NCBI GenBank assembly: GCA_905250025.1
Contig: CAJNOJ010000205.1
Span: 144,292 to 189,886 of the forward strand
Source: Adineta ricciae
Lineage: Eukaryota
DNA length: 45,595 nt
Reading direction: 5' to 3'
Notes under the pieces: model-generated
The model's database searches: none
The model's input: only the letters and a program-made list of their open reading frames with translations
What the model was told of the DNA's origin: nothing
Made by a program: the position numbers and the translations under genes
Shown here: one piece after another, positions 3,132-41,411 of the stretch
Position numbering within the stretch: position 1 is the stretch's first letter
How the letters are laid out: the number at the start of each line of letters is the position of its first letter

Positions 3132-3202
3132 ATGCAAAATAGAATGGGAATAAGTCCCTATTCGTTTGATAAAAGTTTTCATATCGAATATAATCAATAA
3201 TT

Positions 3203-17710: not shown

Positions 17711-17767
17711 CTATTGAATAAAATATTTTCTCACAGAAAATTACAGATATATTACGTAAAAACTTAC

Positions 17768-18777: not shown

Positions 18778-18843
18778 CTAAGGAAAAGCAATGAAAGTTT
18801 GCTTAGAATTAGGCAAAATTTAGATTAGTTTGTTTCTACTCAC

Positions 18844-19413: not shown

Positions 19414-19460
19414 CTACAACGATAGATTGATCAACAATATTTGGTACTTCTACAACTGAC

Positions 19461-19904: not shown

Positions 19905-20394
19905 GTTCAAAGTAAGGTTTGTTCTAGATATGAACCTATTCAATAATATACAACATCTCCTTTATCGAGGAACATTCACTATCAATATAAGCCAACTGCG
20001 CTCATATTTATTTAGCAATTGATCGCGATACAGACACATCATAACAAGAAAAAGATAAGATGAGAGAAATTAATAAGTTAGAATGATTTGAATATATTTA
20101 TCGAATCAAATGACAGCTTCAATAAATGCTTTATTTACTAATCTTTTGAAATGAACATACCACTCACGCGCAAATGTTTGCGTGTGTGGAACAATATTCC
20201 ACGACATTACGAAAAGTCGCGTAATTCAGTACCATATCAAGTTTTCTTTGTAGATTCTGCAATTCGCTTCAGCTGGGTTTTCATAATAACTCAAACCATT
20301 TTCGAAAGACTTTCAACTGTTTCATTCAAAACAAAACTTTATTTAGCATCGATAACAAAATAAATATTACGTATTCACCAATCAAGTCAAATTT

Positions 20395-24742: not shown

Positions 24743-26206
24743 TTACTCATCATCATTATAAAAAAACTCTTCTAACTTTTCAAAAATAAAACTACAATTT
24801 GCTCTTGCCTGTGCCTTCAGTCTTTTTCTTGTTTTCGATTGTAAATTGAAACTGTAGTACAGTTCCAATACCCGTAAGTTCTTCAGCGGAGACAAGATCA
24901 TCAAATCTTCATCTGTGTACTGTATTTCATCTTCTCTGTTGGGATAACTTAACACTAATTCTTCTAAACTTGTCACTTGTGACAGGACTACCATTGATGG
25001 GAAAGAAACCGAAGTCAAATCTAAAATTTTCAATGTATGATGATCAACCAAACTAATGAGTAAATTATCCATATTTTCTTTGGTAATACTGATCTGATCG
25101 AAAGTTAAACTTGTCAAATGAATGAATTGTTTGAGAATATCAATGTGTTCTGAAGTTATTTGAACTTCGTATTCATTCTCGGTGCAATCTGATTCAGCTG
25201 GATATTGAATCATCGTCAGTTCATCATATTTGATATGTTTTGCACTAATCTGTAATTCTTTTAATGATTCTTTCAAGGCAAGTAAATACTTATAACCGTT
25301 GATGTTGAGTTTCGCTTGTAAAGGCGAAAATCGATGTGATCTCAATGAAGTAATAGTGGGAATTCGACTTAAATGGTACAAAATTTCATTGGTGATCAAT
25401 GTTTCTTGAAGATGAACATGTTGTAAAGGAGGTCGGCATGGCAAAGACGCTAAAATTTGCAAATCCGATGGTAAAAATTCGAACCATTCCAAATATTTCA
25501 AGTTCGGAAGACATGCTAGAGCATTCAGTTGCTGAACTCGACTTCTTCTCCCAGTAAAATTGTCCTGGCGAAGAATAAGTTTCTCTAATTTTGTCAAACA
25601 TTTAAAATATTTCTCGATATCGATTTCAATTTTCGCGCCCGATCGTAAAAGTAGAAAGAAGTACGTTAAATTTGGAAGAAGATGCAACGATGTTAGAAGA
25701 CAAAGGCATGTCATCGTTGTCTCGGCATTTATTTCCGGATTCATCGCTAAGATTAAGCTTTTCAGAGTTGGAGAAACCGATCGAAATAAATTTGTAACAA
25801 ACACCGGTGTCAACGAAACAAAACGTAATTTGAACGTATGTAACGAAGTAAAATTCAATTGAAAATTATCCCATGCTATTCTACGATCGGACAAATCCAT
25901 TTCAATTCTATTGACATGACGTAAAATTTTCGAATTGGAAATCACGAGCAGTTGCTGTTCGTTCGAGAGGGTTAATTTCGTACGTTTGTTAAAGCAGAAT
26001 TGGTTAGATGCGAGTAAGTTATACCATGTTTTACATGTTAATGCCACCGACAGTAATGACTCGATCGGTAAATAACGAAAGATTTGTTGATAACAAATCA
26101 CCGGAATTCGAAGTGGATTCGATTCGAACATCATCTCATCATATTTTCGTTTAGACTGTGTCATTTTACAAAACTTGCATGATAAATGAAAATATATAAT
26201 CGTCAT
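24743..26206 (-). CDS. F-box-like plus leucine-rich-repeat protein, single exon
   Basis: An F-box-like region (IPVICYQQIFRYLPIESLLSVALTCKTWYNLL) is followed by Leu-rich repeats. The ORF track starts at a TTG at 26233. The first ATG is at about 26206 (MTIIYF...), with an alternative at about 26164 (MTQSKRK...). Confidence 0.65.
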   Translation of the reverse strand: MTIIYFHLSCKFCKMTQSKRKYDEMMFESNPLRIPVICYQQIFRYLPIESLLSVALTCKTWYNLLASNQFCFNKRTKLTLSNEQQLLVISNSKILRHVNRIEMDLSDRRIAWDNFQLNFTSLHTFKLRFVSLTPVFVTNLFRSVSPTLKSLILAMNPEINAETTMTCLCLLTSLHLLPNLTYFFLLLRSGAKIEIDIEKYFKCLTKLEKLILRQDNFTGRRSRVQQLNALACLPNLKYLEWFEFLPSDLQILASLPCRPPLQHVHLQETLITNEILYHLSRIPTITSLRSHRFSPLQAKLNINGYKYLLALKESLKELQISAKHIKYDELTMIQYPAESDCTENEYEVQITSEHIDILKQFIHLTSLTFDQISITKENMDNLLISLVDHHTLKILDLTSVSFPSMVVLSQVTSLEELVLSYPNREDEIQYTDEDLMILSPLKNLRVLELYYSFNLQSKTRKRLKAQARANCSFIFEKLEEFFYNDDE

Positions 26207-26499
26207 TACACAACAACGTGTAATGTTCTTCAACTAGAATAGAGGTTGGTGCAGGAAAGAATGTTCTCGAAATATGGCGCCGTCATCTTCTTATTATTCG
26301 TTACTGAACACAACAGAAAATGACATTCAATGAAGTCATAATCAATCGTCATTGCGTTAGAAAGCGCTTGTATTTCGTCACTGCTTCTAATCAACCATTC
26401 GCAACCTTCCATGTGGACAAGTCATTACACAATCACAGAACGAATATAAATACCGTAAACGGAGAGTGCAAATGGTACTAGAATAAGTTTTATCGAATA

Positions 26500-27990
26500 A
26501 TGGCTAATCAATTGAATCTTCACATACTACCGGTGGAACTCTTCTATCGAATTGTGAATTATCTGGATGATTTTACGATCATTTCTGCGCTGAGTAATGT
26601 TTGTAAACGCGTTGATACGATGATGGAGAATTATCGCCGTTACAAGGTAAACCACTTTCGCTCATGTGAATAGGCCGAGTATTTCAACTTTTATATAGGC
26701 ATTGACTACACTTCAACTTTGTAACTATAACATTGATTTAAAAGGTGCAGCAAATCTTGCCAATGCTCTCAAACAAAACAAAGTAGTATTTTAAATTCGT
26801 AGTTTTTATGACCGTGATTTCCTATTGAGTTTAGACGATCAGTGTGCTTGATATTGGACTCAATGAGATTGACGCTCAGTCGATGTCGTATATTGCTGAT
26901 GGCTTACGAGAAAATCAAGGAATACTTAAATTAAGTCTTCATTTGAATAAAATCGGCTCAAAAGGGGCAGCATATCTTGCTGATGCGCTGAAACAAAATC
27001 AAGTAACATACACTTCTCCACCGAGATGTTCATATTTTCATTTTGCATTAGACACTAACTCGACTGAATCTTCATTACAATCGAATTGGCGATGAAGGAG
27101 CACGACACTTTGCTGATACATTAAGACATAATAAAGTAAATTCTACTCTGTTCTATGAACACTTTATATGTATACATTGATTGTGATCGATAGGCACTAG
27201 TAAGATTAAATTTGATACGTAATGAAATTGGAGATCAAGGAGTGGCAGATCTCGCTGATGCTTTACAAGAAAATCAAGTAACGTATAGAACTAGAACTTC
27301 ATCCTTATTATTCTTGTTCTGTTTTTCATAGACACTTACAACGTTATATCTCGCAGAAAACCACATCGGTCATCAAGGAGCTCAACATCTTGCCCAAGCT
27401 TTACAAAATAATCATGTAGGTCATCATCATTTGACTTTTTAACAATTTCTTCCTTTTCATCTCTTCAGACATTGACAATACTCTACGTCGCTCAAAACCC
27501 AATTACGGATGAAGGAGCGAAACATTTTGCTGAAGCTTTAAAACAAAATCAAGTACTCATTCGCATACACATTCGACGCATTTGATCTTTTTTGTCATAG
27601 AGCCTCACCGTTCTGAGCTTGAAAAAGAATAAAATTGGTGACCAAGGAGCAGAATATCTCGCTGATGCTCTTACGAAAAACAAGGTAACTACTTTTCTTC
27701 TTCTTCTTCTTCTTCTCGAATTTCACATTCGTTCAATGTTCCCTACAGACACTTACGACACTTCATCTGAAGTGGAACCACATTGGTGATCAAGGAGCGA
27801 TCTCTCTTGCTAACGTTCTCCGTGAAAACAAAGTAACATTCTTTTTCATCAACATTTCATCGAAATAAGCTCTTTTATTACGTAGACGTTGACCTTTGTG
27901 GACATTCGTTTCAACGACATCAGTGATGAAGGAAAAAGTCATCTGATGGAAATAAGAAGATTAAATCGAAAACTGAAACTGATTTTCTAA
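26500..27990 (+). CDS. F-box plus RNI-type LRR protein in 10 exons (335 aa): 26500-26646, 26699-26782, 26835-27002, 27052-27135, 27194-27277, 27332-27415, 27469-27552, 27601-27684, 27749-27832 and 27886-27990
   Basis: The ATG at 26500 leads into an F-box (LPVELFYRIVNYLDDFTIISALSNVCKRVDTMMENY). Nine GT-AG introns of 48-64 bp are all in phase 0. Eight of the internal exons are exactly 84 nt, which is one 28-aa ribonuclease-inhibitor-type repeat, for example TLTTLYLAENHIGHQGAQHLAQALQNNH. One internal exon is 168 nt, or two repeats. Confidence 0.75.
27696..27717. repeat. (CTT)7 microsatellite inside intron 8 of the LRR gene
   Basis: The sequence is cttcttcttcttcttcttctc. Confidence 0.6.
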
Positions 27991-28206
27991 AACGTTTTCT
28001 CTTCATTATAATATATAAGTATATCTACTGTATCATCAAATTATCACAGTTTTACTTTGTTGATTGGTCTTTCTCTGACATCTCAGAATTCGTTATCACG
28101 AGAAGAGCTGTTGATGTGTTGACCTTAACAGTGTTGACAAATACAAAATACATATAAATACAAAGAACAACATAGAGAATCATCGGCATTTTCCTCCTTT
28201 TTCATC

Positions 28207-28815
28207 ATGCTAAAGAAGTTGATTCTTTTTCTATTACTCTCATTGATTCTGGCGATCAAATGCGCTAAATCTGAAACAGCAGTTCGATCGTATGTAGTTA
28301 AAGAAGACAAACCTCCCACCCTCAAACCTCTAACTGATTTTACTGCGTATGATTCACGAGAAAAGGATCGTATTTACCTACTACGAACAACATCGAGTGA
28401 TATTGATACCATTACACTATTCGATTATCGTGCTCGAACAATGATCGGAAATGTCGAGGGAGAATGGATCAATGGCATCTTCAACGTGTCTCTCTCTATT
28501 TATGATCCGAAATCGGACAAATGGGTTGATGGAATCATGACACTTGTGCGAGGTCTTCTATCCTATACGTATAAACTTAATTGGAACAATCAACGTCTGG
28601 TTATGAAGAGCAAATCGTTTACAAAAACGATTAAAATCTATGATGAATCAACGAATCAGTTAATGGGACAATTTCGCTATCGTTCGTTCTGGCGTAGTGG
28701 CACGAAGTACAAATATGACGTGAAAATCTTCACTAATAAACTTCCCGATGCTATTTTTCTCCTATCTATGACAGTGGTTCATCATAGTGAAAAACTAGTG
28801 GACGACAAACGATGA
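28207..28815 (+). CDS. Secreted protein of 202 aa, possibly LURP-one-related or tubby-C-terminal-like
   Basis: The ORF starts at an ATG with a signal peptide (MLKKLILFLLLSLILAIKCA). The C-terminal part (FRYRSFWRSGTKYKYDVKIFTNKLPDAIFLLSMTVV) resembles the C-terminus of LURP-one-related proteins. The family assignment is tentative. Confidence 0.4.
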   Translation: MLKKLILFLLLSLILAIKCAKSETAVRSYVVKEDKPPTLKPLTDFTAYDSREKDRIYLLRTTSSDIDTITLFDYRARTMIGNVEGEWINGIFNVSLSIYDPKSDKWVDGIMTLVRGLLSYTYKLNWNNQRLVMKSKSFTKTIKIYDESTNQLMGQFRYRSFWRSGTKYKYDVKIFTNKLPDAIFLLSMTVVHHSEKLVDDKR

Positions 28816-28970
28816 TCTCAAGATTTCTTACAACTATCGATTTTCTTTAGCTTAGTCTTTGTATTATTCTAATAAAAAAGACACCGTTGCTTTTCTTTCG
28901 TTTGCGAGAAGAAAGAGAATGAATAAAACGACCATGTGCGTCGATTCGATTCAAACATTAAAAAAAAACG

Positions 28971-29648
28971 ATGAAACGTGCCATTGTTTTTCTTCTTTTA
29001 TCCATTGTTTTCGTGTACATTCGTCAGGATAAAGCACAACGTAGTATAACTGCTGGACAACGAATTATTCCCGTGAATTCGCATTACGAAGGTGATATCA
29101 TTGAGTTTGTTCTAAGATCGAATGAAACTGGCCATACGCATTCGACAATTAAGCAAACGATTAAACGCGACGGGCCATGTGGAAACTTGTTATCAAATGC
29201 ACATCCATTGAAACGACCTTGTACTCCACCAATTCATTATCACCTAAAACAAGATGAAAAGTTTGATATTAAACAAGGTCGATTAGGTTACATCTTAAAT
29301 GGCATGAATGGCACGAAAGAAACGAACGAATCTTTATTTATACCCAAAAGTGCATGTCATACATTTTGGAGTGCAGGTGATGATGATTTAGTGGTATATA
29401 TAACACTTTATAATGATCATGGAATGGTACCGGGTAGAAGTGCGGATTCCTATTTTGAAAATATCAATGGTGTTCGACGGGATAGTCCAAGTCTGATAGC
29501 GACACTTCAGGTTCAAATTGGCCACGATATTTATCGATGCGATCTACCCCGACTATTTAACTCGATGTTTAGTAAACTATTCCAAATCGTAGCACTTGCT
29601 CTAGGTTATCAAATTCAATATGTTGAATATACAACACCTGTCATCTAG
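28971..29648 (+). CDS. Secreted protein of 225 aa, function unknown
   Basis: The ORF starts at an ATG with a signal peptide (MKRAIVFLLLSIVFVYI), followed by a Cys-containing mature region. Confidence 0.45.
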   Translation: MKRAIVFLLLSIVFVYIRQDKAQRSITAGQRIIPVNSHYEGDIIEFVLRSNETGHTHSTIKQTIKRDGPCGNLLSNAHPLKRPCTPPIHYHLKQDEKFDIKQGRLGYILNGMNGTKETNESLFIPKSACHTFWSAGDDDLVVYITLYNDHGMVPGRSADSYFENINGVRRDSPSLIATLQVQIGHDIYRCDLPRLFNSMFSKLFQIVALALGYQIQYVEYTTPVI

Positions 29649-29714
29649 ACCTTTTATTACAGAATGAAAGCAACTATTTTTGGTGCGAATAAATTTCTAT
29701 GAGCATGTTGTCTT

Positions 29715-30447
29715 TTATAGACCATGGACATATGTTCGACCTAGATCAGATAAACTTCCATCAGCTCGAATTAAACAGTTGGTTGAACCGAGTGCAGCAT
29801 CGAGACGACGTTGAGCTCCAAACCAGGCATAGCGTTCAACCCAGTCTAACGAATCAAGTTTTTGAACACTCTGTCGCATGAATTCATTGACTTCTGCTTG
29901 AGATACAGGTTGACTTGGATTCCATGACGTACAAGCGAATTCTGTTACCCATACAGGATGTTTATTGCCCAGCTGTTGACGAACGAGTGTGATCCAATTG
30001 ATAAAATTATCAGCACCACGACCGTACCAATGTAAAGCAATAAAATCGATCCGTCCACCGATTTGATTCAAGTCTCTGATGAATTGTTTTAACCAATTGA
30101 GTCCTTCGTTAGTCGAAGCAATAGCTGGTGAGCCAAGACGAACGCCTTGTTGTCTAAGAGGTTCAATATATTTTTTCCAAGCTAGTGCAGCATCACCAGG
30201 ACTCATGTGTGCTTGATCAGCACGTTCCGGTTCGTTGAAACCGAGCACATGCTTTGCACCTCGTGCTTGATTCACGAATAGACTGCCATCGTGACCTTTA
30301 TTCGTACTCCATAACATAGGAATAAATTCAGTACCAGCAAGATTTGTTCTATACGGTGACCAATTGTAAACCCATGAAATCTTTCCGCCACCAAAAACAC
30401 CCGGATTATCTTCTTTATTTTCCATTGGCCATGCAATACCTCGTTTT
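29715..30447 (-). CDS. PAN/apple-GH128 glucanase gene, exon 2: GH128 (Glyco_hydro_cc) catalytic domain
   Basis: The exon reads ...ISWVYNWSPYRTNLAGTEFIPMLWSTNKG...HVLGFNEPERADQAHMSPGDAALAWKKYIEPLRQ...PVWVTEFACTSWNP. NEP and TEF are the expected positions of the two catalytic Glu residues in the fungal/bacterial GH128 beta-1,3-glucanase fold. Confidence 0.7.
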
Positions 30448-30498
30448 CTTTGAAATATGAGAAGCTCACAAAGAGAAGTACTTTTTTCAAATATCTAC

Positions 30499-30842
30499 CT
30501 TGTGTTTCGATTACTTGTAGGATTTCTCGTTGCTTTGACGCCACAAACTGCAGACGAATCTGCACTATTTATAGCATTGGATTTCGAAACTGAACCGGAC
30601 TTCATCCAACAGGTTCCTCCTTGCCAATTCGTCCATGCAAAATGAGTGCATTTTGCTACTGCATCGCATTTCGGACCGCATAATTGCGGTGGACTTCGAA
30701 CATTGGTGAAATCATTTCCACGAAAATCACATCGTAAAGCCCAATTATTACCATTCCAATTGATAGTCGCTTTGGTAGCAACAAATAAATTGAGGATGAC
30801 CAAACATCCAATTGTAATAGACGATGTCGAAGCTTCTTTCAT
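30499..30842 (-). CDS. PAN/apple-GH128 glucanase gene, exon 1: signal peptide plus a PAN/apple-like Cys-rich module
   Basis: The exon starts MKEASTSSITIGCLVILNLFVATKA and continues CDFRGNDF...CGPKCDAVAKCTHFAWTNWQGGTCWMKSG...AVCG. The donor is ACAAG|GTAGAT, followed by a 51-bp intron ending at TTTCAAAG. Coordinates are set so that phase agrees with the ORF-track frames on both sides. Confidence 0.6.
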
Positions 30843-31167
30843 GCTTTCGATTTCGAATCTTAACTTTGATCAGCATTCTCTGTTAGACTACGCAATTATA
30901 TATAGAAGGTTCGTGTGGGAATCAGAAGGGATAAAAGCTTTCATCGTATCGCACCCCATGACTCAGCACGTCAGCTAAATATGTATTTCGAAAACAAAAT
31001 CCCCACATGATTCACAGCCCTAGTATTTTTATCGAGCGTGGGAATGTCGGAGGGAGAGAAACGCAAAGGATTGACATGCACAAAACAAAAAAACGTAAAA
31101 GCACCGGTGCTATTTAAATATAGCCACACATGAGTGGGACTTTTCTGCGGCAAACACTACAATTCGA

Positions 31168-33039
31168 TTAAACTTGAAAGTTAAACGTGTCTTTCTTCTG
31201 AGCAGTTTGCTGTAATTTCACTTTTCCTTCGTCAGAAAATTGACAATCATACATCCATAATACTTGTAACACTTGATTGTCTGTAATCATGCCATCGAAA
31301 TACTCAAGGCTGGCATCCGAAATTAATGCATTCGAATACAACGTTATCTCTTCGAGGGTTTGATTAAAATATCGAACGGCTTCACAGAAACCTTTCATCG
31401 ACTGATCCGTAATGAGATTCTCGTGTAAACCAAGAGCTCGAAGTGTTCTATTCGATTTTAGCATATTGGATAGATGCGCTAGACCTTGGTCGTCTATTTG
31501 GTTACCATTGAGAACCAATCTGCGCAGTGTGGAATTACGGAATGATAACGACTCCGATAACTGTTGTATCGCTTGGTCGGAGATGATGTTGTTCGAAATA
31601 CATAGTTCTGTTAATGTAGAATTCACGCCCAAAAAAGAAAACAAGCAAGAGAATGAACGTTCCGTTAACGCATTGTTTCGTAAAATAACTGATTTATATT
31701 TTAAAGTTGTGAAGTATTTATGGACGATTAAGTTTAGATCATCTTCACTAAGTTTCTCATTGTTTAAATTCAATAACGAACTTCGTTGACAGTTTTCAAT
31801 GAATTCTTCGAGTTGTGGGTTCGTGTAACCGTTCGAAGTGGCGAAGCAGAATAAGTTACTCGATAGACCAATTGGACCGTTTATTTTTAGTTCTAAATGC
31901 TTGATTTTAATAGCACGTTTTTCAAGTTCTCTTTCATGTGTAGTCAATACTTGTCGATACTGTTGATTTTCACTTTGAATCCTATCGTAATTAATCATCT
32001 GCTGCTTCAAACATTCGTTTTCTTCTTGAGATTTTTGATAGTAGCCAAGTAAAGCCCGATGTCCTTCCTTTATAGGTTGCAGCTCGTCCAACTCTTCTCG
32101 CAATTTTTGTTTTTCTTGAATGAGAACTGAAATTTGTTCTTCACCTCTCAATTGATTTGCTATTTTTTGCGTATATTCTTCAAGTTTTGTTAGTGCAGCT
32201 TGACTAGCGTCGTACTGTTCTTTCAGTGATGCATGTGCCGTTTTGATTTGTTCATATTCGCTTTCAATTGGTGTTAATCGATTGATTTCTTTACTGAGCC
32301 GGTCGATTTCGGCTAATTTTTTATCCAAATCCTCTTTCATACCTTCTATTTGCTTTGTGAGTGTTTCTTTTCCTTCATTTAGAACATTAATCTCTTGTTT
32401 TAGTGATGCATTTTCGTTTGCTCCTCGCTTGCATTGGTCAGTTAAAGTAGTTATTTGTATAACTTGCGTGTTCAATCCTTGATTTGCAACTTCAAGCTGT
32501 TTTATACGATCTTCTTGCTCTTTCGAACGATCTGCTAGTTTTCGATGATCATTCCGTAGTTGATCAAGGTCGTTTCTGTCACGAAGAAGCTCCGTTAAGA
32601 GCGCTCGGAGTTGTTCATATGGGCAAGTATGAACATGCTGATTTAATTGATCGTGTGATCCATTCCATGGACATTTGACATCTTTAGCCGGACAAGGTAC
32701 ATTTCTTTTCGGGCAGATTTCGCGCATGTGTTGCAGAAAATCTCCACGTTCAATATCTTGTTGTAAGCAATGACGGCATTGTACCGAGAGACGGCCTAGT
32801 ATTCGATGTACTAGTGCTACTTGATCTTGGATATCTTGTTGAGATAAGGGTTTTCCATTGCAATGCGTGCAGCTTGCTGCATGCTTTTCATAATTCAATT
32901 GAAGACACTGTCGACAAAAGGTTTGTCCACATCGAGAAGGGAAGTAAACTGGATCGATGAATGGATTGCTGCATAGAGAACATTCCCAATCTGGACTTAA
33001 CTCATCCAGATGCAGGTAAATAAAATCATTTGTGCCCAT
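31168..33039 (-). CDS. RING finger, TRAF-type zinc finger, long coiled coil and C-terminal RNI-type LRR protein, single exon
   Basis: A C3HC4-like RING (CSLCSNPFIDPVYFPSRCGQTFCRQCL...CTHC) and a TRAF-like zinc finger region (CRHCLQQ...HMREICPKRNVPCPAKDVKCPWNGSHDQLNQHVHTCPYE) are followed by about 250 aa of heptad-rich coiled coil and then LRRs (LTELCISNNIISDQAIQQLSESL..., LRRLVLNGNQIDDQGLAHLSNML...). The ORF track starts at a GTG at 33072, and the first ATG (MGTNDF...) is at about 33039. Confidence 0.7.
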   Translation of the reverse strand: MGTNDFIYLHLDELSPDWECSLCSNPFIDPVYFPSRCGQTFCRQCLQLNYEKHAASCTHCNGKPLSQQDIQDQVALVHRILGRLSVQCRHCLQQDIERGDFLQHMREICPKRNVPCPAKDVKCPWNGSHDQLNQHVHTCPYEQLRALLTELLRDRNDLDQLRNDHRKLADRSKEQEDRIKQLEVANQGLNTQVIQITTLTDQCKRGANENASLKQEINVLNEGKETLTKQIEGMKEDLDKKLAEIDRLSKEINRLTPIESEYEQIKTAHASLKEQYDASQAALTKLEEYTQKIANQLRGEEQISVLIQEKQKLREELDELQPIKEGHRALLGYYQKSQEENECLKQQMINYDRIQSENQQYRQVLTTHERELEKRAIKIKHLELKINGPIGLSSNLFCFATSNGYTNPQLEEFIENCQRSSLLNLNNEKLSEDDLNLIVHKYFTTLKYKSVILRNNALTERSFSCLFSFLGVNSTLTELCISNNIISDQAIQQLSESLSFRNSTLRRLVLNGNQIDDQGLAHLSNMLKSNRTLRALGLHENLITDQSMKGFCEAVRYFNQTLEEITLYSNALISDASLEYFDGMITDNQVLQVLWMYDCQFSDEGKVKLQQTAQKKDTFNFQV

Positions 33040-33463
33040 TCTTGAAAAGGAACGGAAACTTGATTTCTTCACAGTCAGATTCTACGGTGCATATGCCTTT
33101 TACACTGTTGTGAGAAGAATTGGGAAGAAAATGAAGAGTATACGTTTTACAAACGATTGTGTTGCTGTTTTCTCGTTACACAAAGAACGAAGAAAAAATG
33201 TGGTTGATTATAGTCGACAAAATACCCAGAGAAATGAAGAAAATGTAAATATGAAAATAAGAGTGTAATAAGAAAAAAGATGTTATTTAAAAGAACAAAC
33301 TCAGCCTTGATGAAGGTGTAGAAACCTATTATCAGTGTGAAGTTAGTACCAGATAGTTCGCACCAAAAAACAAAGAATTTCACGATAATATTCATCTAAG
33401 TATCCCCTTGTCGTAGTTATTCTTTATTAAATACAAAACACACATCAACAACCATTTAGCTGC

Positions 33464-35775
33464 TTAATGATTATATAATAATTCAATATGTGGGTTATGT
33501 TTAACTATCTCTTTAGCATATTGTTTTCCCTGATGACCAATACCATTGTTTCGAATATTCAGTGTACGAAGCGTCTGAATCAAATGATTGGTGAAGAGCA
33601 AAAGAAAAGAAAAGAGATAGTCTTTACTCGATGGTTTCGTTGAAGCGCTTTCGCTAAATGCTGCACTCCTTGTGTACTGATATGATTAGCACGCAGATCG
33701 AGTTCAGTGAGTGTCTATACGAATTAGGAACTGAACGACTGAGCACAAAAACATGGATGAAAGAATAGATATCACTTTATTTTCCTGTAGAGCAACAGCA
33801 AGGTATTCCGCTCCTTGTACACCAATATTATTGTCATCGAGATGCAGATCTTTGAGTGTCTTTAACAGAGAAAAAAATGAATAGAGTGTTATCGAAAGAA
33901 AATGTATTACTTTGTTTCGATGTAAGGCGTTGGCAAGATATTGTACGGCCTCGTCATCGATTGAATTGGATGCAATATCTAACGAAGTGAGTGCCTACGT
34001 TCCAACGGTCGGTACCGAATAAATACAGAAATGACTGAGTCGATATTTATTACTTTGTTTTGTTCGAGAGCAGCAGCGAGATATTGGGCACCCACTGGTC
34101 CAATTTGATTTCCATGCAGTTCAAGTATAGCAAGTGTCTAGACGGAATCAAATGCAGAATCAAAACTTGATGAAAACAATAGTACCTCATTACGTTGCAA
34201 TGCATCGGCCAGATGCTGTGCTCCCTGTGGTCCAATTTGGTTGTCATAAAGATCAAGTGAAATCAGTGTCTACACGAACGAAAATATTAGAAGTGATCGA
34301 AAGAGGCTAAGTCTTACTTTACTCCGTTGCAAGATATTTCCAAGATGTTGAGCTCCTGCTGGACCTATTTGATTATTGGAGATGTCAAGCGTAGTGATTG
34401 TCTGCAAGTGATTAATGAACAGTGAAATAAGAAGAAAAGCAATGAAATAGTACATTATTTTCTTGTAAACCATTGGCAAGGTGATAAAATTCTTGATCGC
34501 CAATTTGATTAGCACCACAATTCAATGTGGTCAGTGTCTGTAGGAAATAGCGAGGTAATCATTAAAATGACGAAGAGAAAGATGGTCACTTTATTTTGTT
34601 GCAGAGCATTTCCAAGATGTTCTATCCCTTCCAAACCGATATTACTTTCACGAATATTTAGAGTAGTTAGTGTCTACACATAGTTTTTTATAAAGAGAAA
34701 AGGTGAAGTGATCAGCAAACGATTACTTTGTTCTCGCGTAGAACTCTAGCAAGATGTATCATTCCTTCAGTACCGATATTATTATTTCGAAGATCAAGTG
34801 TATGGAGTGTCTATATATGAAGTGGATACATTCAGTGATATAATCGAGATCTATTACTTGATTTTCTCGCAGAGCGTCAGCAAGATGTTGTATTCCAGAC
34901 GAAGTGATATCGTTGTGTCCGACATCGAGTACTCTAAGTGTCTAAATAAAACCAGCACTAGATTAGCTTAGAAATAAAATAAGCAAATGACATTACTTTG
35001 CTATGCTGTAAGACACCGGCAAAATACTCAATTCCAAGATCATCTATTCCATTTGCATCGAGATAGAGAACAGATAGTGTCTATGTCAAGGATTGTTTAT
35101 GAAAAATGAAAAAAACGTATAGGAACACTTTACTTTATTTTGCAATAAAGCATCAGAAAGATATTGCATTCCTTGTGCATCAATTTCATTACCCGATAGA
35201 TGAAGTGCAGATAGTGTCTATATGTGCATGACGTATAAGTAAAAGAAAGGCATACAAAAAAACATTACTTTGTTTCTTTGTAGAGCATCGGCGAAATAGT
35301 TTGCTGCTTGTGAAACCATTCCATTGAAGCTGACGTTCATTGTTGTAAGTGTCTTTTATAGAACATAAATATGAGCGGTGAATTGGAAGAACAGATAAAC
35401 GCAGAATCTTGTTACTTCATTTTGTTCTAACATTTTAGCGAGTAAAGAGGCTCCTACGAGACCGATTCCATTAAAGGACAGATCCAGTGTAGTAAGATTC
35501 TGTATAAAATGTAAACCGTTGACAAGATTTTCCACTTTTTCATCGTTCAAATCTTTCCGACGAAGATCAAGTTCTGTAAGTATCTGTGAAGATTGAATAA
35601 GAATACTTTCACATAAGTACGTCAAAGAGAAATTTACTTGATATCGATGATAAGTATTTAGAATGTTGTTAAAACGTGCACAAACATTGTGCATGGAACA
35701 AATCATCGTCAAATCATCGAAATGATCGAAAATACGATAAACTAGCTCTATCGGCAATGTAAAAAATGATGCCAT
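33464..35775 (-). CDS. F-box plus RNI-type LRR protein in about 16 exons, with one LRR per exon
   Basis: The ATG at about 35775 leads into an F-box (MASFFTLPIELVYRIFDHFDDLTMICSMHNVCARFNNILNTYHRYQ) ending at the donor CAA|GTAAAT. A series of 84-nt exons follows, each encoding one 28-aa RI-type LRR (for example TLKDLHLDDNNIGVQGAEYLAVALQENK and TLTELDLRANHISTQGVQHLAKALQRNH) and separated by phase-0 introns of 50-60 bp. The last exon ends ...NPHIELLYNH* with the stop at about 33464. Individual internal exon coordinates are not listed. Confidence 0.65.
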
Positions 35776-36498: not shown

Positions 36499-38832
36499 TC
36501 AATAACACCCCCACCCACCCTCACCCTCACCCTCAATAAGCGCTTTGAAATGTTTCAATTCGGTCAAACGCATCACGGCTGTCTTATATTCCGGATGGTT
36601 AACATCGAATACTTCCTTGTATATCTTAACCGCCATTTCGTAGTAATGTATAGCCATTGAAATATCGCCGTTTAGCGCTAGAATGGTACCCATAGTAGAA
36701 AATGTTCGAGCAAATGTTGGATGATTTGATGGATAAACACGACGTTTGATTTCCAGAGAAAAATTACAATAGTGCAATGCTTGTTCAGTATTACCTTGAT
36801 CTGCATAATACGATGCAAGATTGCTATAGAACATCCCTAGTTCTGATTCGTCAGGAGTTTGAGCGTTTTGTATACAATTGATGGCTTTTCTTGTATATTC
36901 TATGCCTTGTTCGATATTGCCCATACTATGATACACTACACCGATATTATTGTACCTTTTAGCAATACTTATGCTCATCCCTTTTTCAAATTGTTCCTCG
37001 GTTTGTAAGCTTTTTTGTAGATAATACAACGCTAATTCGTATTCTTCTTTTTTACGATAGATAACACCAATATTGCCATAAACACCAGCCAGTGCAACAT
37101 GACTGTATATGCCATTAATGGTGTATATTCGTTCTGCTTCTTTATATTGGCGAAGTGCTTCATCATATTCGCCTTTGGCGTCATATACCCCTCCAATTTC
37201 CTGATAAGCGCAGGCAATCGGTAGTTTGTTATCGGCAAATAATCCCTGAAGAATTTCAAGATTTCTTTTGCAATATTGTAATGATTTATTGTATTGTCCT
37301 AACTTCAAATAAGCTGCACCTATGCTAGAGTATAGTCTCGCTGCCATCATATCGTTATTCAAATGGCGATGTTCCACGATTTCATGCGCATGAAAATAAT
37401 TTTTAAAGGCATCATCATAATTTCCAAACCTTTCATAAGTGTCTCCAATGCGTGTTAGAGTACGCACAAATACATTCGGACCTACTGTTGGGTATTTCAA
37501 GTGAATTTCTAATGCCGTTTTGTAAAAGCTCATTGCTCGTTCATAATCTTCTTCTTGTGCATAAATTTGTCCAATGTTGTTATAAATATGGCAACAAACT
37601 GGATGCATGGAAGAACCTTCCATTATATAACAATTTAAAGCCTTTATATAGTAGTATAGACCGCGTCGATAGTTATGCTTAACACAGTTGCAAATACCAA
37701 GAACATTGTAGATTTTCCCAGGATTCTCAGTGTACTCTTCGAGTAACATAAGCAGATATTTTTCTGCTTTGCCATACGAATACGATTCATTTAGAAGTAT
37801 AGCCAATTCAAACAGTGGATCATCACAGTCCTCCAAACGGGAGTATGAATTCTTGAGGTAATCATTCAATTTCACCCTGCTCTCATCAGTTGCTGTAAGC
37901 TGTATTTTCCAAACATTGTTTTCCATTTGTTTAACAGACTGTACTACGAATAGCATGCCCATAGAGAGTAAGACTTCATTTTCGTCCGACATATGGCTTA
38001 CGTTTGAGATATCAGCTAGTGGTTTGTGCGATCGATTCACATCGATTGTGATTTCAAAAAGTACTGACTCGATTTCTGGTCGATTGGACCCATCGCCAGC
38101 AAATATGAGTGCAACATCTTGACGCTTTGTTGTAGACAAGAAAGATTTTAGCGAGATGATGGTATTTTTACTAGCTTTTAGATTATTCAACTCGCTGGCT
38201 TCCATTTGTTGACCGCGGTAAACTGTAATAACATTCGAGTTTTCCGTTTTGAATTTATTATGTAAATCACTGAGTGCATCATAAAGATCGATTACAAAAC
38301 TTCGAAACTTGAATATGATATCAATATCTTCAGTTTGAAGCGCTTTGTTTATTACTTTATGAATGAAACAATCTTGAGTGTACCACGAAATAGCCGATTG
38401 AGGTTGATATGTCTTTTCAAACCGTTCAATTTTTCTTAATTCACTGGGATCATCATGATATTGGACCCTGCATATTGTTACCATATCTTGTCTTGATCTA
38501 TCGTTTTGAGGTAGACGCCGTAGAGCTTCCAATAACATTTGATTCCACTGATAAGTTGCACAATGTGAACTCAGATCGTGGCTAGACGTAGTTTTCATTG
38601 AGAACAGCATCGGTTCCACTACAGGCATCTGCAACAACTCTATATCGCTTTTCACACGATCACATAGTTGTTTATTTAATTCATAGACTCTGTCTCGAAT
38701 CTTTGGAAAATGATGTGTCCAATTCAATTGTTCCGAATCCATATTTGAGATTTCTTTCTCAAAGCAAATATAAATGTATATCAGCTGCGGAATCTCATGA
38801 ATGAGTGGCACCAACAATTCAGCTTCACTCAA
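36499..38832 (-). CDS. Arginine-specific ADP-ribosyltransferase domain (R-S-ExE) fused to tetratricopeptide (kinesin-light-chain-type TPR) repeats
   Basis: The ART core has R in VITVYRGQQM, S-T-T in LKSFLSTTKRQDVAL and ExE in SDENEVLLSMG. More than 10 TPR units follow, for example AMSFYKTALEIHLKYPTVGPNVFVRTLTRIGDTYERFGNYDDAF. The C-terminal tail is EGEGEGGWGCY*. The ORF track begins at a TTG, and the first ATG within this ORF (MDSEQLNW...) is at about 38742. The true 5' end may lie in the next feature. Confidence 0.75.
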   Translation of the reverse strand: MSEAELLVPLIHEIPQLIYIYICFEKEISNMDSEQLNWTHHFPKIRDRVYELNKQLCDRVKSDIELLQMPVVEPMLFSMKTTSSHDLSSHCATYQWNQMLLEALRRLPQNDRSRQDMVTICRVQYHDDPSELRKIERFEKTYQPQSAISWYTQDCFIHKVINKALQTEDIDIIFKFRSFVIDLYDALSDLHNKFKTENSNVITVYRGQQMEASELNNLKASKNTIISLKSFLSTTKRQDVALIFAGDGSNRPEIESVLFEITIDVNRSHKPLADISNVSHMSDENEVLLSMGMLFVVQSVKQMENNVWKIQLTATDESRVKLNDYLKNSYSRLEDCDDPLFELAILLNESYSYGKAEKYLLMLLEEYTENPGKIYNVLGICNCVKHNYRRGLYYYIKALNCYIMEGSSMHPVCCHIYNNIGQIYAQEEDYERAMSFYKTALEIHLKYPTVGPNVFVRTLTRIGDTYERFGNYDDAFKNYFHAHEIVEHRHLNNDMMAARLYSSIGAAYLKLGQYNKSLQYCKRNLEILQGLFADNKLPIACAYQEIGGVYDAKGEYDEALRQYKEAERIYTINGIYSHVALAGVYGNIGVIYRKKEEYELALYYLQKSLQTEEQFEKGMSISIAKRYNNIGVVYHSMGNIEQGIEYTRKAINCIQNAQTPDESELGMFYSNLASYYADQGNTEQALHYCNFSLEIKRRVYPSNHPTFARTFSTMGTILALNGDISMAIHYYEMAVKIYKEVFDVNHPEYKTAVMRLTELKHFKALIEGEGEGGWGCY

Positions 38833-40287: not shown

Positions 40288-40881
40288 ATGGCTGAATCGC
40301 ATGTGTTTAAGACAACTACAGTGGATGAACATAGTGACGCTGAAGACGCTTCATTTTCAACTGGATCTTCAAGACCTAGTCGTGCAAATATTGCCAAGGA
40401 TACTCTTGAAAAACTCAAAGCTGGCTGGTATGAATCACCTGATGGCACCAAAATCGTCCTTGAAGATGATGTCACATTCTCTAATCAACAGAGTATTTTA
40501 TATACCGAAGACGATCTCCAAAATACAAAACAACTGAATGCAAACTTAGACGAAACAAATCCTACACGTCTAACTTCCGATAGTTCTCAAACCAAAATAG
40601 AAACTCGACTTTGCTCAACATTAGAAGCAGCCAGGTCACTCGTTGCTGAGGTAGGCGAAGATCACGTCGGAGTGTTGAATTTCGCTTCAGCTAAAAATCC
40701 TGGTGGTGGCTTCCTCGGTGGCGCACAAGCACAAGAAGAATCTATTGCTCGCTCTTCGTCACTTTACATGGCTATTACACAAGATCAATTCATGGATGGA
40801 TTCTATAGTTATCATCGACATGGTGAACGAGGTGTCTACAGCCACCGAATGATCTATTCTCCACGAATAACTATTTTTCGA
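40288..40881 (+). CDS. Microbial-type PARG-like macrodomain protein (TIGR02452/DUF2263 type), exon 1
   Basis: The ATG at 40288 starts an exon containing the diagnostic ...VGVLNFASAKNPGGGFLGGAQAQEESIARSSSLY motif (PGGGF...QEE), which is the ADP-ribose-binding and catalytic signature of bacterial-type poly(ADP-ribose) glycohydrolases. The donor is CGA|GTATGT. Confidence 0.7.
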
Positions 40882-40946
40882 GTATGTTAACAAGATCAGA
40901 ACTTTCTTTGGTTTATATCATATCGTTTTTTTTATTGTCTTTACAG

Positions 40947-41411
40947 AACGACAATGGATATCTATTACCGTTACCGTATCATGTAGGCATTATTACTTGT
41001 CCTGCCCCTAATGCAGGAGTAATTAATGATCGAATAGACAGTCGAAATCTAATGAGCGAACGTATTAAGCGTGTACTATACGTTTTTAAAGCGCATAAAC
41101 ACGACACACTTCTATTAGGGGCCTTCGGCTGTGGTGTATTCAAGAATAATCCATATGACGTTGCTCTAGTCTTTCGAGAACAATTAGAATCGAACTTATA
41201 CAAAAACTCATTCAAACGCATTGTTTTCGCAATTACAAACCCTGCAATGTATCAAATATTCAAACAAGTCTTCGATTCTCCCAATCTACACGAGCTACAA
41301 CAACAAATGGCATTAATGACTTTCAATCAGAACAAGAAAAAACATTCGTCAGATAAAAATCGAAAACAGCAGAGAAAAGAACGACGTCAACAAAAGTATC
41401 AGAACGATTAA
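40947..41411 (+). CDS. Microbial-type PARG-like macrodomain protein, exon 2
   Basis: A 65-bp intron ends at TTTACAG. The exon reads NDNGYLLPLPYHVGIITCPAPNAG...LLLGAFGCGVFKNNPYDVALVF... and ends in a basic Lys/Arg/Gln-rich tail (KKKHSSDKNRKQQRKERRQQKYQND*). Phase 0 agrees with both ORF-track frames. Confidence 0.7.
   Translation, partial: NDNGYLLPLPYHVGIITCPAPNAGVINDRIDSRNLMSERIKRVLYVFKAHKHDTLLLGAFGCGVFKNNPYDVALVFREQLESNLYKNSFKRIVFAITNPAMYQIFKQVFDSPNLHELQQQMALMTFNQNKKKHSSDKNRKQQRKERRQQKYQND

What the first reader, a model, noticed from the sequence alone, without database searches (positions are those of the whole stretch)
26500..35775. Two F-box/RNI-LRR genes built as one LRR per exon, with 84-nt exons and phase-0 micro-introns
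The plus-strand gene (26500-27990, 10 exons) and the minus-strand gene (33464-35775, about 16 exons) both encode ribonuclease-inhibitor-type 28-residue LRRs. In both genes every internal exon is exactly 84 nt, except one 168-nt exon, and starts at the same repeat position (T/A-L-T/R-x-L...). All introns are phase 0 and 48-64 bp long. This architecture allows in-frame exon duplication, deletion or skipping, so the number of repeats can vary without breaking the protein. It is reminiscent of variable immune-type LRR receptors. The plus-strand sequence of the minus gene even mimics GTGAGT...CAG signals, because ACACTCAC codes for T-L-T and CTACAG for L-Q.
Basis: seen in the sequence. Interest (0 to 1): 0.55.

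Follow-up and report, generated by a model that had tools for sequence, protein, structure and literature searches.

The report
Rotifer F-box genes: one repeat per exon
Two intact genes of the bdelloid rotifer Adineta ricciae encode F-box proteins whose leucine-rich repeats are each carried by one 84-base exon in the same reading phase; this tidy modular design is real, old and family-wide in these rotifers, and similar designs are already known from vertebrate NOD/NLRC genes and from Tetrahymena.

Summary
The plus gene (26500-27990) has 10 exons. The minus gene (35775-33464) has 16. All 24 introns are phase 0, GT-AG and 47-64 nt long. Every LRR exon starts at the same repeat position (T-L-T-x-L). 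Chains of such exons reach 6 and 13; shuffled sequence gives at most 2.

The window is Adineta ricciae. The public annotation uses the same splice sites for plus-gene exons 1-9, and gives the minus gene the same ends and a 503-residue product.

The proteins have a divergent F-box followed by 10 or 16 ribonuclease-inhibitor-type LRRs, so they are probably SCF substrate adaptors (inferred). The same 84-nt phase-0 layout occurs in an A. ricciae F-box-LRR gene, an A. ricciae ADP-ribosyltransferase-LRR gene and a Rotaria F-box-LRR gene. It therefore predates the Adineta/Rotaria split.

Exons within and between the two genes are only about 54% identical, and their introns are unrelated. The duplications are therefore ancient, and I found no sign of ongoing exon turnover.

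Exon-per-LRR modularity is already published for human NOD/NLRC genes and for Tetrahymena 90-bp arrays. The rotifer version differs in phase, boundary position and partner domains. It is a new variant of a known kind, of moderate interest.

The parts
26500..27990 (+). PLUS gene: F-box + 10 RI-type LRRs, 10 exons, 335 aa
   Evidence: Model. Exons 1-9 are identical to public protein CAF1132598.1/P0122. Pfam LRR_6 scores 158.9 bits. AF2 model has beta/alpha solenoid repeats with pLDDT 80-92.
26500..26646 (+). PLUS exon 1 (147 nt): divergent F-box, residues 1-49
   Evidence: Pfam F-box-like E=0.011, below threshold. Family alignment A1 hits F-box models 14/14. Three helices predicted at low pLDDT.
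26699..26782 (+). PLUS exon 2, 84 nt, LRR1 (ALTTLQL...)
26835..27002 (+). PLUS exon 3, 168 nt = LRR2+LRR3 with no intron between them
27052..27135 (+). PLUS exon 4, 84 nt, LRR4
27194..27277 (+). PLUS exon 5, 84 nt, LRR5
27332..27415 (+). PLUS exon 6, 84 nt, LRR6
27469..27552 (+). PLUS exon 7, 84 nt, LRR7
27601..27684 (+). PLUS exon 8, 84 nt, LRR8
27749..27832 (+). PLUS exon 9, 84 nt, LRR9
27886..27990 (+). PLUS exon 10 (105 nt incl. stop): terminal LRR10; skipped in the fused public model P0122
33464..35775 (-). MINUS gene: F-box + 16 RI-type LRRs, 16 exons, 503 aa
   Evidence: Model. Public annotation has the same ends and a 503-residue product. Pfam LRR_6 scores 196.6 bits. Best PDB matches are RI-like, LRRC34, RNH1, NOD2 and NLRPs.
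35638..35775 (-). MINUS exon 1 (138 nt): divergent F-box, residues 1-46
   Evidence: On its own the N-terminus scores F-box-like 22.1 bits, E=1.3e-4 (gathering 24.3), and F-box 19.2 bits. A profile search of PDB hits only the FBXL2 and FBXO31 F-boxes.
35416..35583 (-). MINUS exon 2, 168 nt = LRR1+LRR2 with no intron between them
35269..35352 (-). MINUS exon 3, 84 nt
35134..35217 (-). MINUS exon 4, 84 nt
34997..35080 (-). MINUS exon 5, 84 nt
34858..34941 (-). MINUS exon 6, 84 nt
34727..34810 (-). MINUS exon 7, 84 nt
34590..34673 (-). MINUS exon 8, 84 nt
34454..34537 (-). MINUS exon 9, 84 nt
34318..34401 (-). MINUS exon 10, 84 nt
34186..34269 (-). MINUS exon 11, 84 nt
34054..34137 (-). MINUS exon 12, 84 nt
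33911..33994 (-). MINUS exon 13, 84 nt
33776..33859 (-). MINUS exon 14, 84 nt
33628..33714 (-).
33464..33574 (-). MINUS exon 16 (111 nt incl. stop): terminal LRR

Best explanation
These are two intact, anciently diverged paralogous genes of the bdelloid rotifer Adineta ricciae. Each encodes a short, divergent F-box followed directly by a ribonuclease-inhibitor-type LRR horseshoe of 10 or 16 repeats.

Inferred function: the F-box docks on Skp1 in an SCF ubiquitin ligase, and the concave LRR face selects the substrate.

Gene structure: every 28-residue repeat (beta strand, loop, helix, loop) is one symmetric phase-0 exon of 84 nt. The intron sits in the loop three residues before each beta strand. 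This layout is best explained by ancient tandem duplication of a single exon+intron unit. That happened before the Adineta/Rotaria split, and the layout has since been inherited by a large bdelloid family whose LRR module is joined to different N-terminal heads (F-box, ADP-ribosyltransferase and others).

Occasional precise absence of an intron gives the 168-nt exons. A one-codon insertion gives the 87-nt exon.

The layout makes exon gain, loss or skipping frame-neutral, and paralogs do differ in repeat number. In these two genes, however, the repeats are old and stable, and nothing shows active diversification.
For: Shown:
- Gene models, uniform phase and uniform register, far beyond chance.
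- Agreement with the public annotation.
- Source organism: exact protein matches to A. ricciae and 100% identity to GCA_905250095.1 contig CAJNOR010001379.1 over 21,233 bases.
- RI-type LRR: Pfam LRR_6 at 159 and 197 bits. The best solved relatives are RI-like proteins, LRRC34, RNH1, NOD2 and NLRPs. The AF2 solenoid matches NLRP, NOD2 and RI folds with TM up to 0.79.
- In the model each exon begins 3 residues before a strand: exon starts at residues 50, 78, 134, 162 and so on; strands start at 53, 81, 137, 165 and so on.
- F-box: 14 of 14 aligned family N-termini hit Pfam F-box-like, best E=9e-9. The only PDB profile hits are the F-boxes of FBXL2 and FBXO31.
- Family-wide layout: L002 (A. ricciae F-box-LRR) has nine 84-nt exons and one 87-nt exon. 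L003 (A. ricciae ART-LRR) has ten 84-nt exons. L004 (Rotaria magnacalcarata F-box-LRR) has fourteen. All are phase 0 in the same register.
- Old duplications: 54% mean exon identity, third codon positions 44%, introns indistinguishable from shuffles, and no within-gene homogenisation.

Inferred: the SCF adaptor function, and the origin by exon+intron duplication.
Against: - The F-box of each window gene is below Pfam's gathering score on its own: 22.1 bits against 24.3 for the minus gene, and E=0.011 for the plus gene. It is modelled with low confidence.
- There is no transcript evidence for any splice junction; support comes from sequence logic and a gene-predictor annotation.
- No ortholog above about 56% identity was recovered, so conservation of these two genes specifically is unknown.
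- Intronless RI-type LRR genes exist in the same window (31168-33072) and in Didymodactylos carnosus (L005). Introns were therefore gained in one sublineage or lost in others, and the direction is not settled.
Confidence: 0.8

Rival explanations
1. Active repertoire diversification. The symmetric exons are used now, by regulated or stochastic exon skipping or by frequent unequal crossing-over, to produce many LRR variants from each gene. That would make these proteins function as variable immune-type sensors, as proposed for NLRP3 splicing.
For: - All internal exons are frame-neutral.
- In human NLRs this architecture is described as a precondition for alternative splicing, and alternative splicing of NLRP3 LRR exons was shown (PMC6642158).
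- The public model of the paralog in L003 omits three intact 84-nt LRR exons (L003 3200-3283, 3347-3430, 3493-3576) lying in its annotated 613-nt 'intron'.
- Near-identical A. steineri copies P0080 and P0087 are annotated with one LRR more or less.
- Bdelloid relatives pair the LRR module with effector-like heads such as F-box, RING/B-box, ART and caspase.
Against: - No transcript data were available.
- The omitted exons and the P0080/P0087 differences sit in gene-predictor models that are visibly chimeric, so they may be annotation artefacts.
- Exons in the two window genes are ancient and not homogenised, and their introns are unrelated. This argues against frequent recent unequal crossing-over.
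- Splice sites are uniformly canonical.
Confidence: 0.15
2. Parallel intron gain. The ancestor was an intronless RI-LRR array, and introns were later inserted independently at the same proto-splice site (AAR|AC) of each repeat, rather than being copied together with the exons.
For: - Intronless RI-LRR genes exist beside these genes (31168-33072) and in D. carnosus (L005).
- Exon junctions are uniform: the last codon is AAA, CAA or AAG in 19 of 24 exons and the first codon is ACA, GCA or ACG in 22 of 24. This could act as a recurrent insertion site.
- Introns share no detectable similarity.
Against: - It needs dozens of independent insertions at exactly the same position and phase in every repeat of many genes, and again in Rotaria.
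- Lack of intron similarity is equally expected after ancient duplication of about 50-nt introns.
- The uniform junction codons are simply the conserved N-K|T-L residues of the repeat.
Confidence: 0.04
3. Artefact or pseudogene. The apparent exons are decayed repeat fragments or a mis-split continuous ORF, not functional spliced genes.
For: None found. The only weak point is the absence of expression data.
Against: - 26 of 26 exons are open, and the scaffold residues L2, L5, N10, I12, L24 and N27 are conserved in 23-24 of 26 repeats.
- All 24 introns have GT-AG ends, and 15 contain in-frame stops.
- The public annotation agrees.
- The spliced product gives a confident LRR fold.
Confidence: 0.01

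Closest known systems
Vertebrate NOD/NLRC genes (NOD1, NOD2, NLRC3/5, CIITA): one 28-aa RI-type LRR per exon (Istomin & Godzik 2009, PMC2747839; Hoss et al. 2019, PMC6642158)
   Same: The LRR class (RI type, 28 residues) is the same. One repeat per exon is the same; a 28-aa repeat corresponds to an 84-nt exon, which is my arithmetic rather than a figure stated in the passages I read. The boundary falls at the same place in every repeat, and the exons are strictly frame-preserving, so exon skipping or duplication keeps the fold. The window proteins also match NOD2 and NLRP LRRs by sequence and by fold.
   Different: There is no NACHT/NOD domain; the head is an F-box. The exon register differs. 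NOD exons are described as xLxxNxL...LxxL, with the border 'within the beta-sheet'. The rotifer exons start one residue before LxxLxLxxN, in the loop three residues ahead of the strand. That is about 5 residues upstream and suggests an independent origin. The NLR intron phase was not checked here.
[quoted passage not shown] 2019, PMC6564038)
   Same: Both are arrays of LRR exons of exactly one length separated by introns of a single phase. Exon number per gene is highly variable, and the pattern is interpreted as clonal expansion of one exon+intron unit.
   Different: The Tetrahymena exons are 90 bp (30-aa unit) with phase-2 introns, so codons straddle the junctions. The rotifer exons are 84 nt with phase 0, so each is a self-contained repeat. 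Tetrahymena has young, still nucleotide-similar expansions linked to a LINE-like element. I saw no young copies and no associated retroelement in this window. The Tetrahymena authors wrote that they knew of no other eukaryote with such uniformity.
Mammalian ribonuclease inhibitor (RNH1) and NLRP genes: two LRRs (28+29 aa) per 171-bp exon
   Same: The fold and repeat class are the same, and exon boundaries coincide with repeat units (NLRP: PMC6642158). That RNH1 evolved by exon duplication is from my own recollection of Haigis et al. 2002; I did not read that paper here.
   Different: The unit is a 57-aa A+B pair rather than a single 28-aa repeat. RI has no F-box.
Canonical FBXL F-box/LRR proteins (e.g. 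Skp2, FBXL2)
   Same: The order is the same: N-terminal F-box, then a C-terminal LRR arc as the presumed substrate-binding domain. The family F-box profile aligns to the FBXL2 F-box.
   Different: From general knowledge, FBXL LRRs are the cysteine-containing class of about 26 residues. Here the repeats are 28-residue RI/NLR-class. The F-box is divergent and below Pfam threshold in the two window genes.
Lamprey/hagfish variable lymphocyte receptors (VLR)
   Same: Only the general idea of LRR modules as interchangeable units (mentioned in PMC6642158).
   Different: VLRs are assembled somatically from flanking cassettes into an incomplete germline gene, and they use short capped extracellular LRRs (general knowledge). 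Here the genes are complete germline genes with ordinary introns and cytosolic-type RI LRRs. A LRR-exon scan found no spare cassettes in the window.

Membership tests
RI/RNI-type LRR proteins | Tandem 28-29-residue repeats with LxxLxLxxN/CxL followed by an alpha helix; matches Pfam LRR_6 | tested here: met
   LRR_6 scores 158.9 and 196.6 bits against a cut-off of 23.4. The 26-repeat profile reads T-L-T-T-L-D-L-x-x-N-x-I-G-D-Q-G-A-x-H/Y-L-A-D-A-L-x-x-N-K.
RI/RNI-type LRR proteins | Alpha/beta horseshoe fold resembling ribonuclease inhibitor or NLR LRR domains | tested here: met
   phmmer against PDB: RI-like 4e-41, RNH1 1.8e-37, NOD2 1.9e-29. The AF2 model has LRR pLDDT of 80-92. Foldseek against PDB: NLRP2, NLRP5, NOD2 and RI with TM 0.76-0.79.
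F-box proteins (SCF substrate receptors) | N-terminal F-box motif of about 40-50 residues recognised by F-box profiles | tested here: inconclusive
   Whole proteins are sub-threshold (E 0.007-0.011). The minus-gene N-terminus alone scores 22.1 bits against a gathering score of 24.3. At family level 14 of 14 N-termini match PF12937 (best 9e-9) and 13 of 14 match PF00646. PDB profile hits are only the F-boxes of FBXL2 (E 0.021) and FBXO31. UniRef names P0122 'F-box domain-containing protein'.
F-box proteins (SCF substrate receptors) | Binding to Skp1 and assembly into an SCF ligase | not testable with these tools
   This needs a binding assay or complex prediction. The single-sequence AF2 model gives three helices in residues 12-47, but at pLDDT below 50.
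Exon-per-repeat LRR architecture (NOD/NLRC type) | Each internal LRR exon encodes exactly one 28-aa repeat | tested here: met
   19 of 22 internal exons are 84 nt, two are 168 nt (two repeats) and one is 87 nt.
Exon-per-repeat LRR architecture (NOD/NLRC type) | LRR exons are frame-preserving, with the boundary at the same repeat position throughout | tested here: met
   All 24 introns are phase 0, and all LRR exons start at x-L-x-x-L.
Exon-per-repeat LRR architecture (NOD/NLRC type) | Boundary located inside the beta strand (exon = xLxxNxL...LxxL) | tested here: not met
   The rotifer boundary lies before the whole LxxLxLxxN motif, 3 residues ahead of the strand. The NOD register is as given in PMC2747839 and PMC6642158.
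NLR (NOD-like receptor) family | Central NACHT/NB-ARC NTPase domain | tested here: not met
   There is no NACHT hit in either protein. The 46-49-residue F-box exon joins directly to the first LRR.
Tetrahymena-type exact-length LRR exon arrays | Arrays of at least 3 consecutive exons of one exact length with a single intron phase | tested here: met
   Runs of 6 and 12 consecutive 84-nt exons, all phase 0, and 14 in Rotaria.
Tetrahymena-type exact-length LRR exon arrays | 90-bp exons, phase-2 introns, young nucleotide-similar expansions | tested here: not met
   Here the exons are 84 nt and phase 0. Exon identity is at most 68% and introns are unrelated. The Tetrahymena definition is from PMC6564038.
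VLR-like somatically assembled LRR receptors | Incomplete germline gene flanked by donor LRR cassettes | tested here: not met
   Both genes are complete from ATG to stop. A scan for LRR-like 84/168/252-nt exons over the whole window found only one spurious non-LRR hit outside the two genes.
Alternatively spliced LRR genes (NLRP3-like regulation) | Observed isoforms lacking individual LRR exons | not testable with these tools
   No transcript data were available. The exon-omitting annotated models in L003 and in P0080/P0087 are only suggestive.

The most novel reading that the evidence does not exclude
Bdelloid rotifers carry a large lineage-specific superfamily of cytosolic RI-type LRR sensors built from arrays of exact 84-nt, phase-0, one-repeat exons. 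These arrays are fused to interchangeable effector heads: F-box, RING/B-box, ADP-ribosyltransferase and caspase. On this reading the family is a NACHT-less, NLR-like conflict or immune repertoire, in which repeat number is tuned by exon gain and loss and possibly by exon skipping. It would be a third independent invention of exact-length LRR exon arrays, after vertebrate NOD/NLRC genes and Tetrahymena.
Probability: 0.3. Interest if true: 0.65.

Novelty: new variant of a known kind. Interest (0 to 1): 0.38.

Why it matters
Exact-length LRR exon arrays with a single intron phase have been highlighted twice. In human NLRs they are presented as the precondition for alternative splicing of LRR domains. 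In Tetrahymena they are presented as an engine of species-specific gene birth, and those authors thought the uniformity unique.

A third instance in bdelloid rotifers differs in exon register and intron phase from those two. If it arose independently, this would suggest that the architecture is a recurrent solution for evolvable LRR binding surfaces. It would also give a simple genomic signature, an 84-nt phase-0 exon peak, for charting a large and so far undescribed rotifer gene family. That family may bear on how long-term asexual animals cope with pathogens.

There is a practical point too. Because every junction is phase 0, gene predictors easily skip exons or fuse neighbouring genes, as P0122 and the L003 model show. 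Published protein sets for this family are therefore unreliable.

For the two genes themselves the result is modest: they are ordinary, stable members of that family.

Tried and rejected
- A 'longest spliced ORF' gene builder produced chimeric nonsense that ran into neighbouring genes. I replaced it with a register-aware model.
- Exact look-ups of my two spliced proteins found nothing. The minus-gene product seems to be missing from the protein collection, so I could compare only its ends and length, not its residues.
- Look-ups of P0013, P0039, P0124, P0076 (Capsaspora), P0153 (Citrus) and two window ORFs failed. I therefore obtained no outgroup gene structure and no second allelic or homoeologous copy.
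- The one extra contig (L001) is 100% identical to the window, so allele comparison was impossible.
- Two homology searches returned only relatives at or below about 56% identity, dominated by generic repeat similarity. No orthologs were found, so I made no dN/dS test and no exon-count comparison between orthologs.
- The metagenome scan gave four distant matches; the two longest are uninterrupted by introns. It was not informative.
- Recent exon duplication is rejected for the window genes. It is not demonstrable in L003 either, where only splice consensus and T-rich tracts align between introns.
- A VLR-like cassette system is rejected.
- Literature searches for a description of this bdelloid family found nothing relevant. 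The library is limited to open-access papers.

Full report
**1. What is in the sequence**

The window is AT-rich eukaryotic DNA with a GC fraction of about 0.37. I read both strands. I then scanned for open 84-, 168- or 252-nt segments flanked by AG and GT that start with an LRR motif, and assembled explicit models.

The plus gene (26500-27990) has 10 exons of 147, 84, 168, 84x6 and 105 nt. It encodes 335 aa.

The minus gene (35775-33464) has 16 exons of 138, 168, 84x12, 87 and 111 nt. It encodes 503 aa.

All 24 introns are GT...AG, phase 0 and 47-64 nt long. Fifteen contain in-frame stops, and most have lengths that are not multiples of three. They must therefore be removed to keep the frame.

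Every LRR exon begins one residue before the LxxLxLxxNxI motif.

- One exon is 87 nt, not 84 (33714-33628).
- One intron is 47 nt.
- The 'GTGAGT...CAG mimicry' remark applies to only two sites.

As a chance control I chained AG-[84-nt open frame]-GT units spaced 40-70 nt apart. The window gives chains of 6 and 13. Four hundred shuffled strands never exceeded 2.

**2. Source and independent support**

Three window ORFs are exact matches to Adineta ricciae proteins, including CAF1287881.1.

Contig CAJNOR010001379.1 of GCA_905250095.1 (L001) is 100% identical to window 17583-38815.

The public protein CAF1132598.1 (P0122) is identical to my plus-gene exons 1-9. It then skips the last LRR exon and is fused to the downstream 202-aa secreted-protein gene. 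The other assembly annotates that 202-aa gene separately, so the fusion is probably an artefact.

The same annotation places a gene at exactly the minus-gene ends with a 503-residue product, which equals my model's length. I could not compare the residues, because that product is not in the protein collection.

**3. What the proteins are**

*LRR part.*
- Pfam LRR_6 scores 159 and 197 bits.
- The best solved relatives are RI-like proteins, LRRC34, ribonuclease inhibitor, NOD2 and NLRPs.
- A single-sequence AlphaFold model of the plus protein gives a regular strand/helix solenoid with pLDDT of 80-92.
- That model matches the LRR domains of NLRP2, NLRP5, NOD2 and RI with TM up to 0.79.
- The 26 repeats give the consensus T-L-T-T-L-D-L-x-x-N-x-I-G-D-Q-G-A-x-H/Y-L-A-D-A-L-x-x-N-K. 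Scaffold positions are nearly invariant and the strand-face x positions are variable.

*Exon-to-structure mapping.* In the model each exon starts three residues before a beta strand. One exon is therefore one complete strand-loop-helix-loop unit.

*N-terminus.*
- The N-terminal 46-49 residues (LPxELxYRIxxxLD...VC...Y.RY) are a divergent F-box.
- Each gene alone is just below Pfam's threshold: 22.1 bits against 24.3 for the minus gene, and E=0.011 for the plus gene.
- All 14 aligned family N-termini hit F-box-like, best E=9e-9.
- A profile of them hits only the F-boxes of FBXL2 and FBXO31 in the PDB.

*Function.* A role as SCF substrate adaptors is an inference from this architecture. It was not tested.

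**4. Family context**

The two genes are 39-43% identical to each other. They face each other across 5.5 kb that holds four unrelated genes.

The nearest database relatives are bdelloid proteins from Adineta steineri, A. ricciae, A. vaga and Rotaria spp., at only 40-56% identity. In these relatives the same LRR module follows F-box, RING/B-box, ADP-ribosyltransferase or caspase domains.

I recovered genomic DNA for four relatives and mapped the annotated proteins exactly:

| Locus | Species and gene | LRR exon layout |
|---|---|---|
| L002 | A. ricciae F-box-LRR | nine 84-nt and one 87-nt LRR exon, plus a longer terminal LRR exon |
| L003 | A. ricciae ART-LRR | ten 84-nt LRR exons, plus a longer terminal LRR exon |
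| L004 | Rotaria magnacalcarata F-box-LRR | fourteen consecutive 84-nt LRR exons, plus a longer terminal exon |
| L005 | Didymodactylos carnosus ART-LRR | intronless |

In L002, L003 and L004 all introns are phase 0 and all exons share the T-L-T-x-L register. Most of their LRR introns are 47-66 nt long.

The layout is therefore a property of a gene family that predates the Adineta/Rotaria split, not of these two genes. It is not universal, however:
- The D. carnosus ART-LRR gene (L005) is intronless.
- The TRAF-zinc-finger/coiled-coil/RI-LRR gene inside this window (31168-33072, minus strand) encodes its repeats without introns.

The neighbouring genes have 0-267 intronic nucleotides each. The two LRR genes are thus intron-dense islands, with about 9-10 introns per kb of CDS. 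The roughly 50-nt intron size itself is the local norm.

**5. Age of the repeats**

- The 26 LRR units average 54% nucleotide identity (maximum 68%) and 41% amino-acid identity.
- Third codon positions are 44% identical.
- Mean identity within the plus gene (0.539), within the minus gene (0.545) and between the genes (0.536) is the same.
- Adjacent units are barely more similar than the rest (0.56).
- Local alignment scores between introns (mean 9.1) match those of shuffles (8.4).

The duplications are therefore ancient, and there is no concerted evolution or recent exon turnover.

In L003 some exons reach 76% identity, but only splice consensus and T-rich tracts align between its introns.

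The two 168-nt exons lie at different repeat positions: LRR2+3 in the plus gene and LRR1+2 in the minus gene. They are best read as independent precise intron losses. This is an inference.

**6. Does repeat number vary?**

Between paralogs it does. The two window genes have 10 and 16 LRRs. The three related loci have 11, 11 and 15 annotated 84-nt-class LRR exons, terminal exons included.

The annotated 613-nt 'intron 1' of the L003 gene contains three further intact 84-nt LRR exons with AG/GT flanks, at L003 3200-3283, 3347-3430 and 3493-3576.

Two near-identical A. steineri proteins, P0080 and P0087, differ by one LRR.

These observations show that exon-omitting products are in frame. They come from gene-predictor models that are visibly chimeric, though, so they are not evidence of real exon skipping. 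I could test neither alleles (the only second contig is identical) nor transcripts.

**7. Comparison with what is known**

Exon-per-repeat modularity of RI-type LRRs is published:
- In human NOD and NLRC genes one 28-aa LRR is encoded per exon.
- In NLRP genes two LRRs are encoded per 171-bp exon.
- The exons are strictly frame-preserving and the border sits at one fixed position.
- This has been linked to alternative splicing of NLRP3 (PMC2747839; PMC6642158).

In Tetrahymena, thousands of LRR genes contain arrays of exactly 90-bp exons separated by phase-2 introns. These are interpreted as clonal expansion of one exon+intron unit (PMC6564038).

The rotifer genes share the principle but differ in four ways:
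- The introns are phase 0.
- Each 84-nt exon is a self-contained repeat.
- The border lies in the loop before the whole LxxLxLxxN motif. In NODs it lies inside the strand (xLxxNxL...LxxL), about five residues away.
- The head is an F-box, or another effector domain in relatives, not a NACHT domain.

These differences suggest an independent origin.

VLR-type somatic assembly does not apply. Both genes are complete germline genes, and a LRR-exon scan found no spare cassettes in the window.

I found no paper describing this bdelloid family, within the limits of an open-access library.

**8. Verdict**

The architecture is real and frame-neutral, and paralogs vary in repeat number. The two genes themselves are old, stable members of a family, and the 'variable immune receptor' reading is an untested analogy.

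The best explanation is that these are SCF-type F-box adaptors with an RI-type LRR arc, built by ancient tandem duplication of a phase-0 one-repeat exon. My confidence is about 0.8 for the anatomy and evolutionary history, and lower for the biochemical role.

Novelty: a new variant of a known kind. Interest is moderate (0.38). The family-level reading would deserve more.

Noticed in passing
window 31168-33072 (-): This single-exon gene encodes a TRAF-type zinc finger/Sina-like region, a long coiled coil and C-terminal RI-type LRRs (LRR_6, E=1.8e-7). It is 27-32% identical to the minus-gene LRRs. It is annotated as 623 aa with no introns, and serves as an internal contrast showing that RI-type LRRs in this genome are not always split one per exon.
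   Followed up: partly
window 5848-6927 (-) and 24743-26233 (-): Two more F-box genes, both intronless, with non-RI repeat regions. The first shares the same F-box subtype (LPxELLYRI...Y.RYK) as the two LRR genes. The window therefore holds four F-box genes within 30 kb.
   Followed up: partly
window 26500-28815 (+); public protein P0122 / CAF1132598.1: The public annotation of one A. ricciae assembly fuses plus-gene exons 1-9 to the downstream 202-aa secreted-protein gene (28207-28815), skipping the terminal LRR exon. The other assembly annotates the 202-aa gene separately (CAF1287881.1). The fusion is probably a predictor artefact made easy by phase-0 junctions.
   Followed up: partly
L003 3030-3642: The annotated 613-nt first intron of the A. 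ricciae ART-LRR gene (P0074) contains three intact 84-nt LRR exons with AG/GT flanks, at 3200-3283, 3347-3430 and 3493-3576. This is either real exon skipping or, more likely, an incomplete gene model.
   Followed up: partly
window 36499-38832 (-) and 40288-41411 (+): An ADP-ribosyltransferase (ART/ADPrib_exo_Tox) fused to a long TPR array lies about 1.5 kb from a microbial-type poly(ADP-ribose) glycohydrolase (PARG_cat_microb, E=8e-44). That places a possible ADP-ribosylation writer and eraser close together. ART-TPR genes also flank the LRR genes in L003 and L004.
   Followed up: no
window 29715-30842 (-), 44526-45498 (-), 7089-8102 (-): Genes with microbial-looking domains: Glyco_hydro_cc (E=2e-67), a beta-lactamase-family serine hydrolase (E=8e-26) and an aldo/keto reductase (E=3e-47). 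They fit the known high load of horizontally acquired genes in bdelloids, but their origin was not tested.
   Followed up: no
window 17583-38815 vs L001: A 27-kb contig of GCA_905250095.1 is 100% identical to the window over 21,233 bases with no mismatch. The same proteins are also recorded on a 189,886-bp contig. I recovered no diverged allelic or homoeologous copy of this region.
   Followed up: partly
window 35584-35637 and 33860-33910 (minus-gene introns 1 and 13): These two introns (54 and 51 nt) are open in frame and have lengths divisible by three. Retaining either would insert 18 or 17 residues without breaking the protein. The ORF listing reads straight through intron 1.
   Followed up: no
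P0080 / P0087 (Adineta steineri): These proteins have the closest F-box to the minus gene (58% identity in the aligned F-box region). The annotated products of the two near-identical copies differ by one LRR, and both run on into unrelated downstream domains. They look like chimeric gene models.
   Followed up: no
window 14893-19943 (-): Large ORFs encode an EGF-like/cysteine-rich region joined to a 7-TM receptor (14893-17658). Upstream of them are LDL-receptor class A-like cysteine-rich modules (17764-19386). The public annotation gives a 706-aa product with a faint Ldl_recept_a hit.
   Followed up: no
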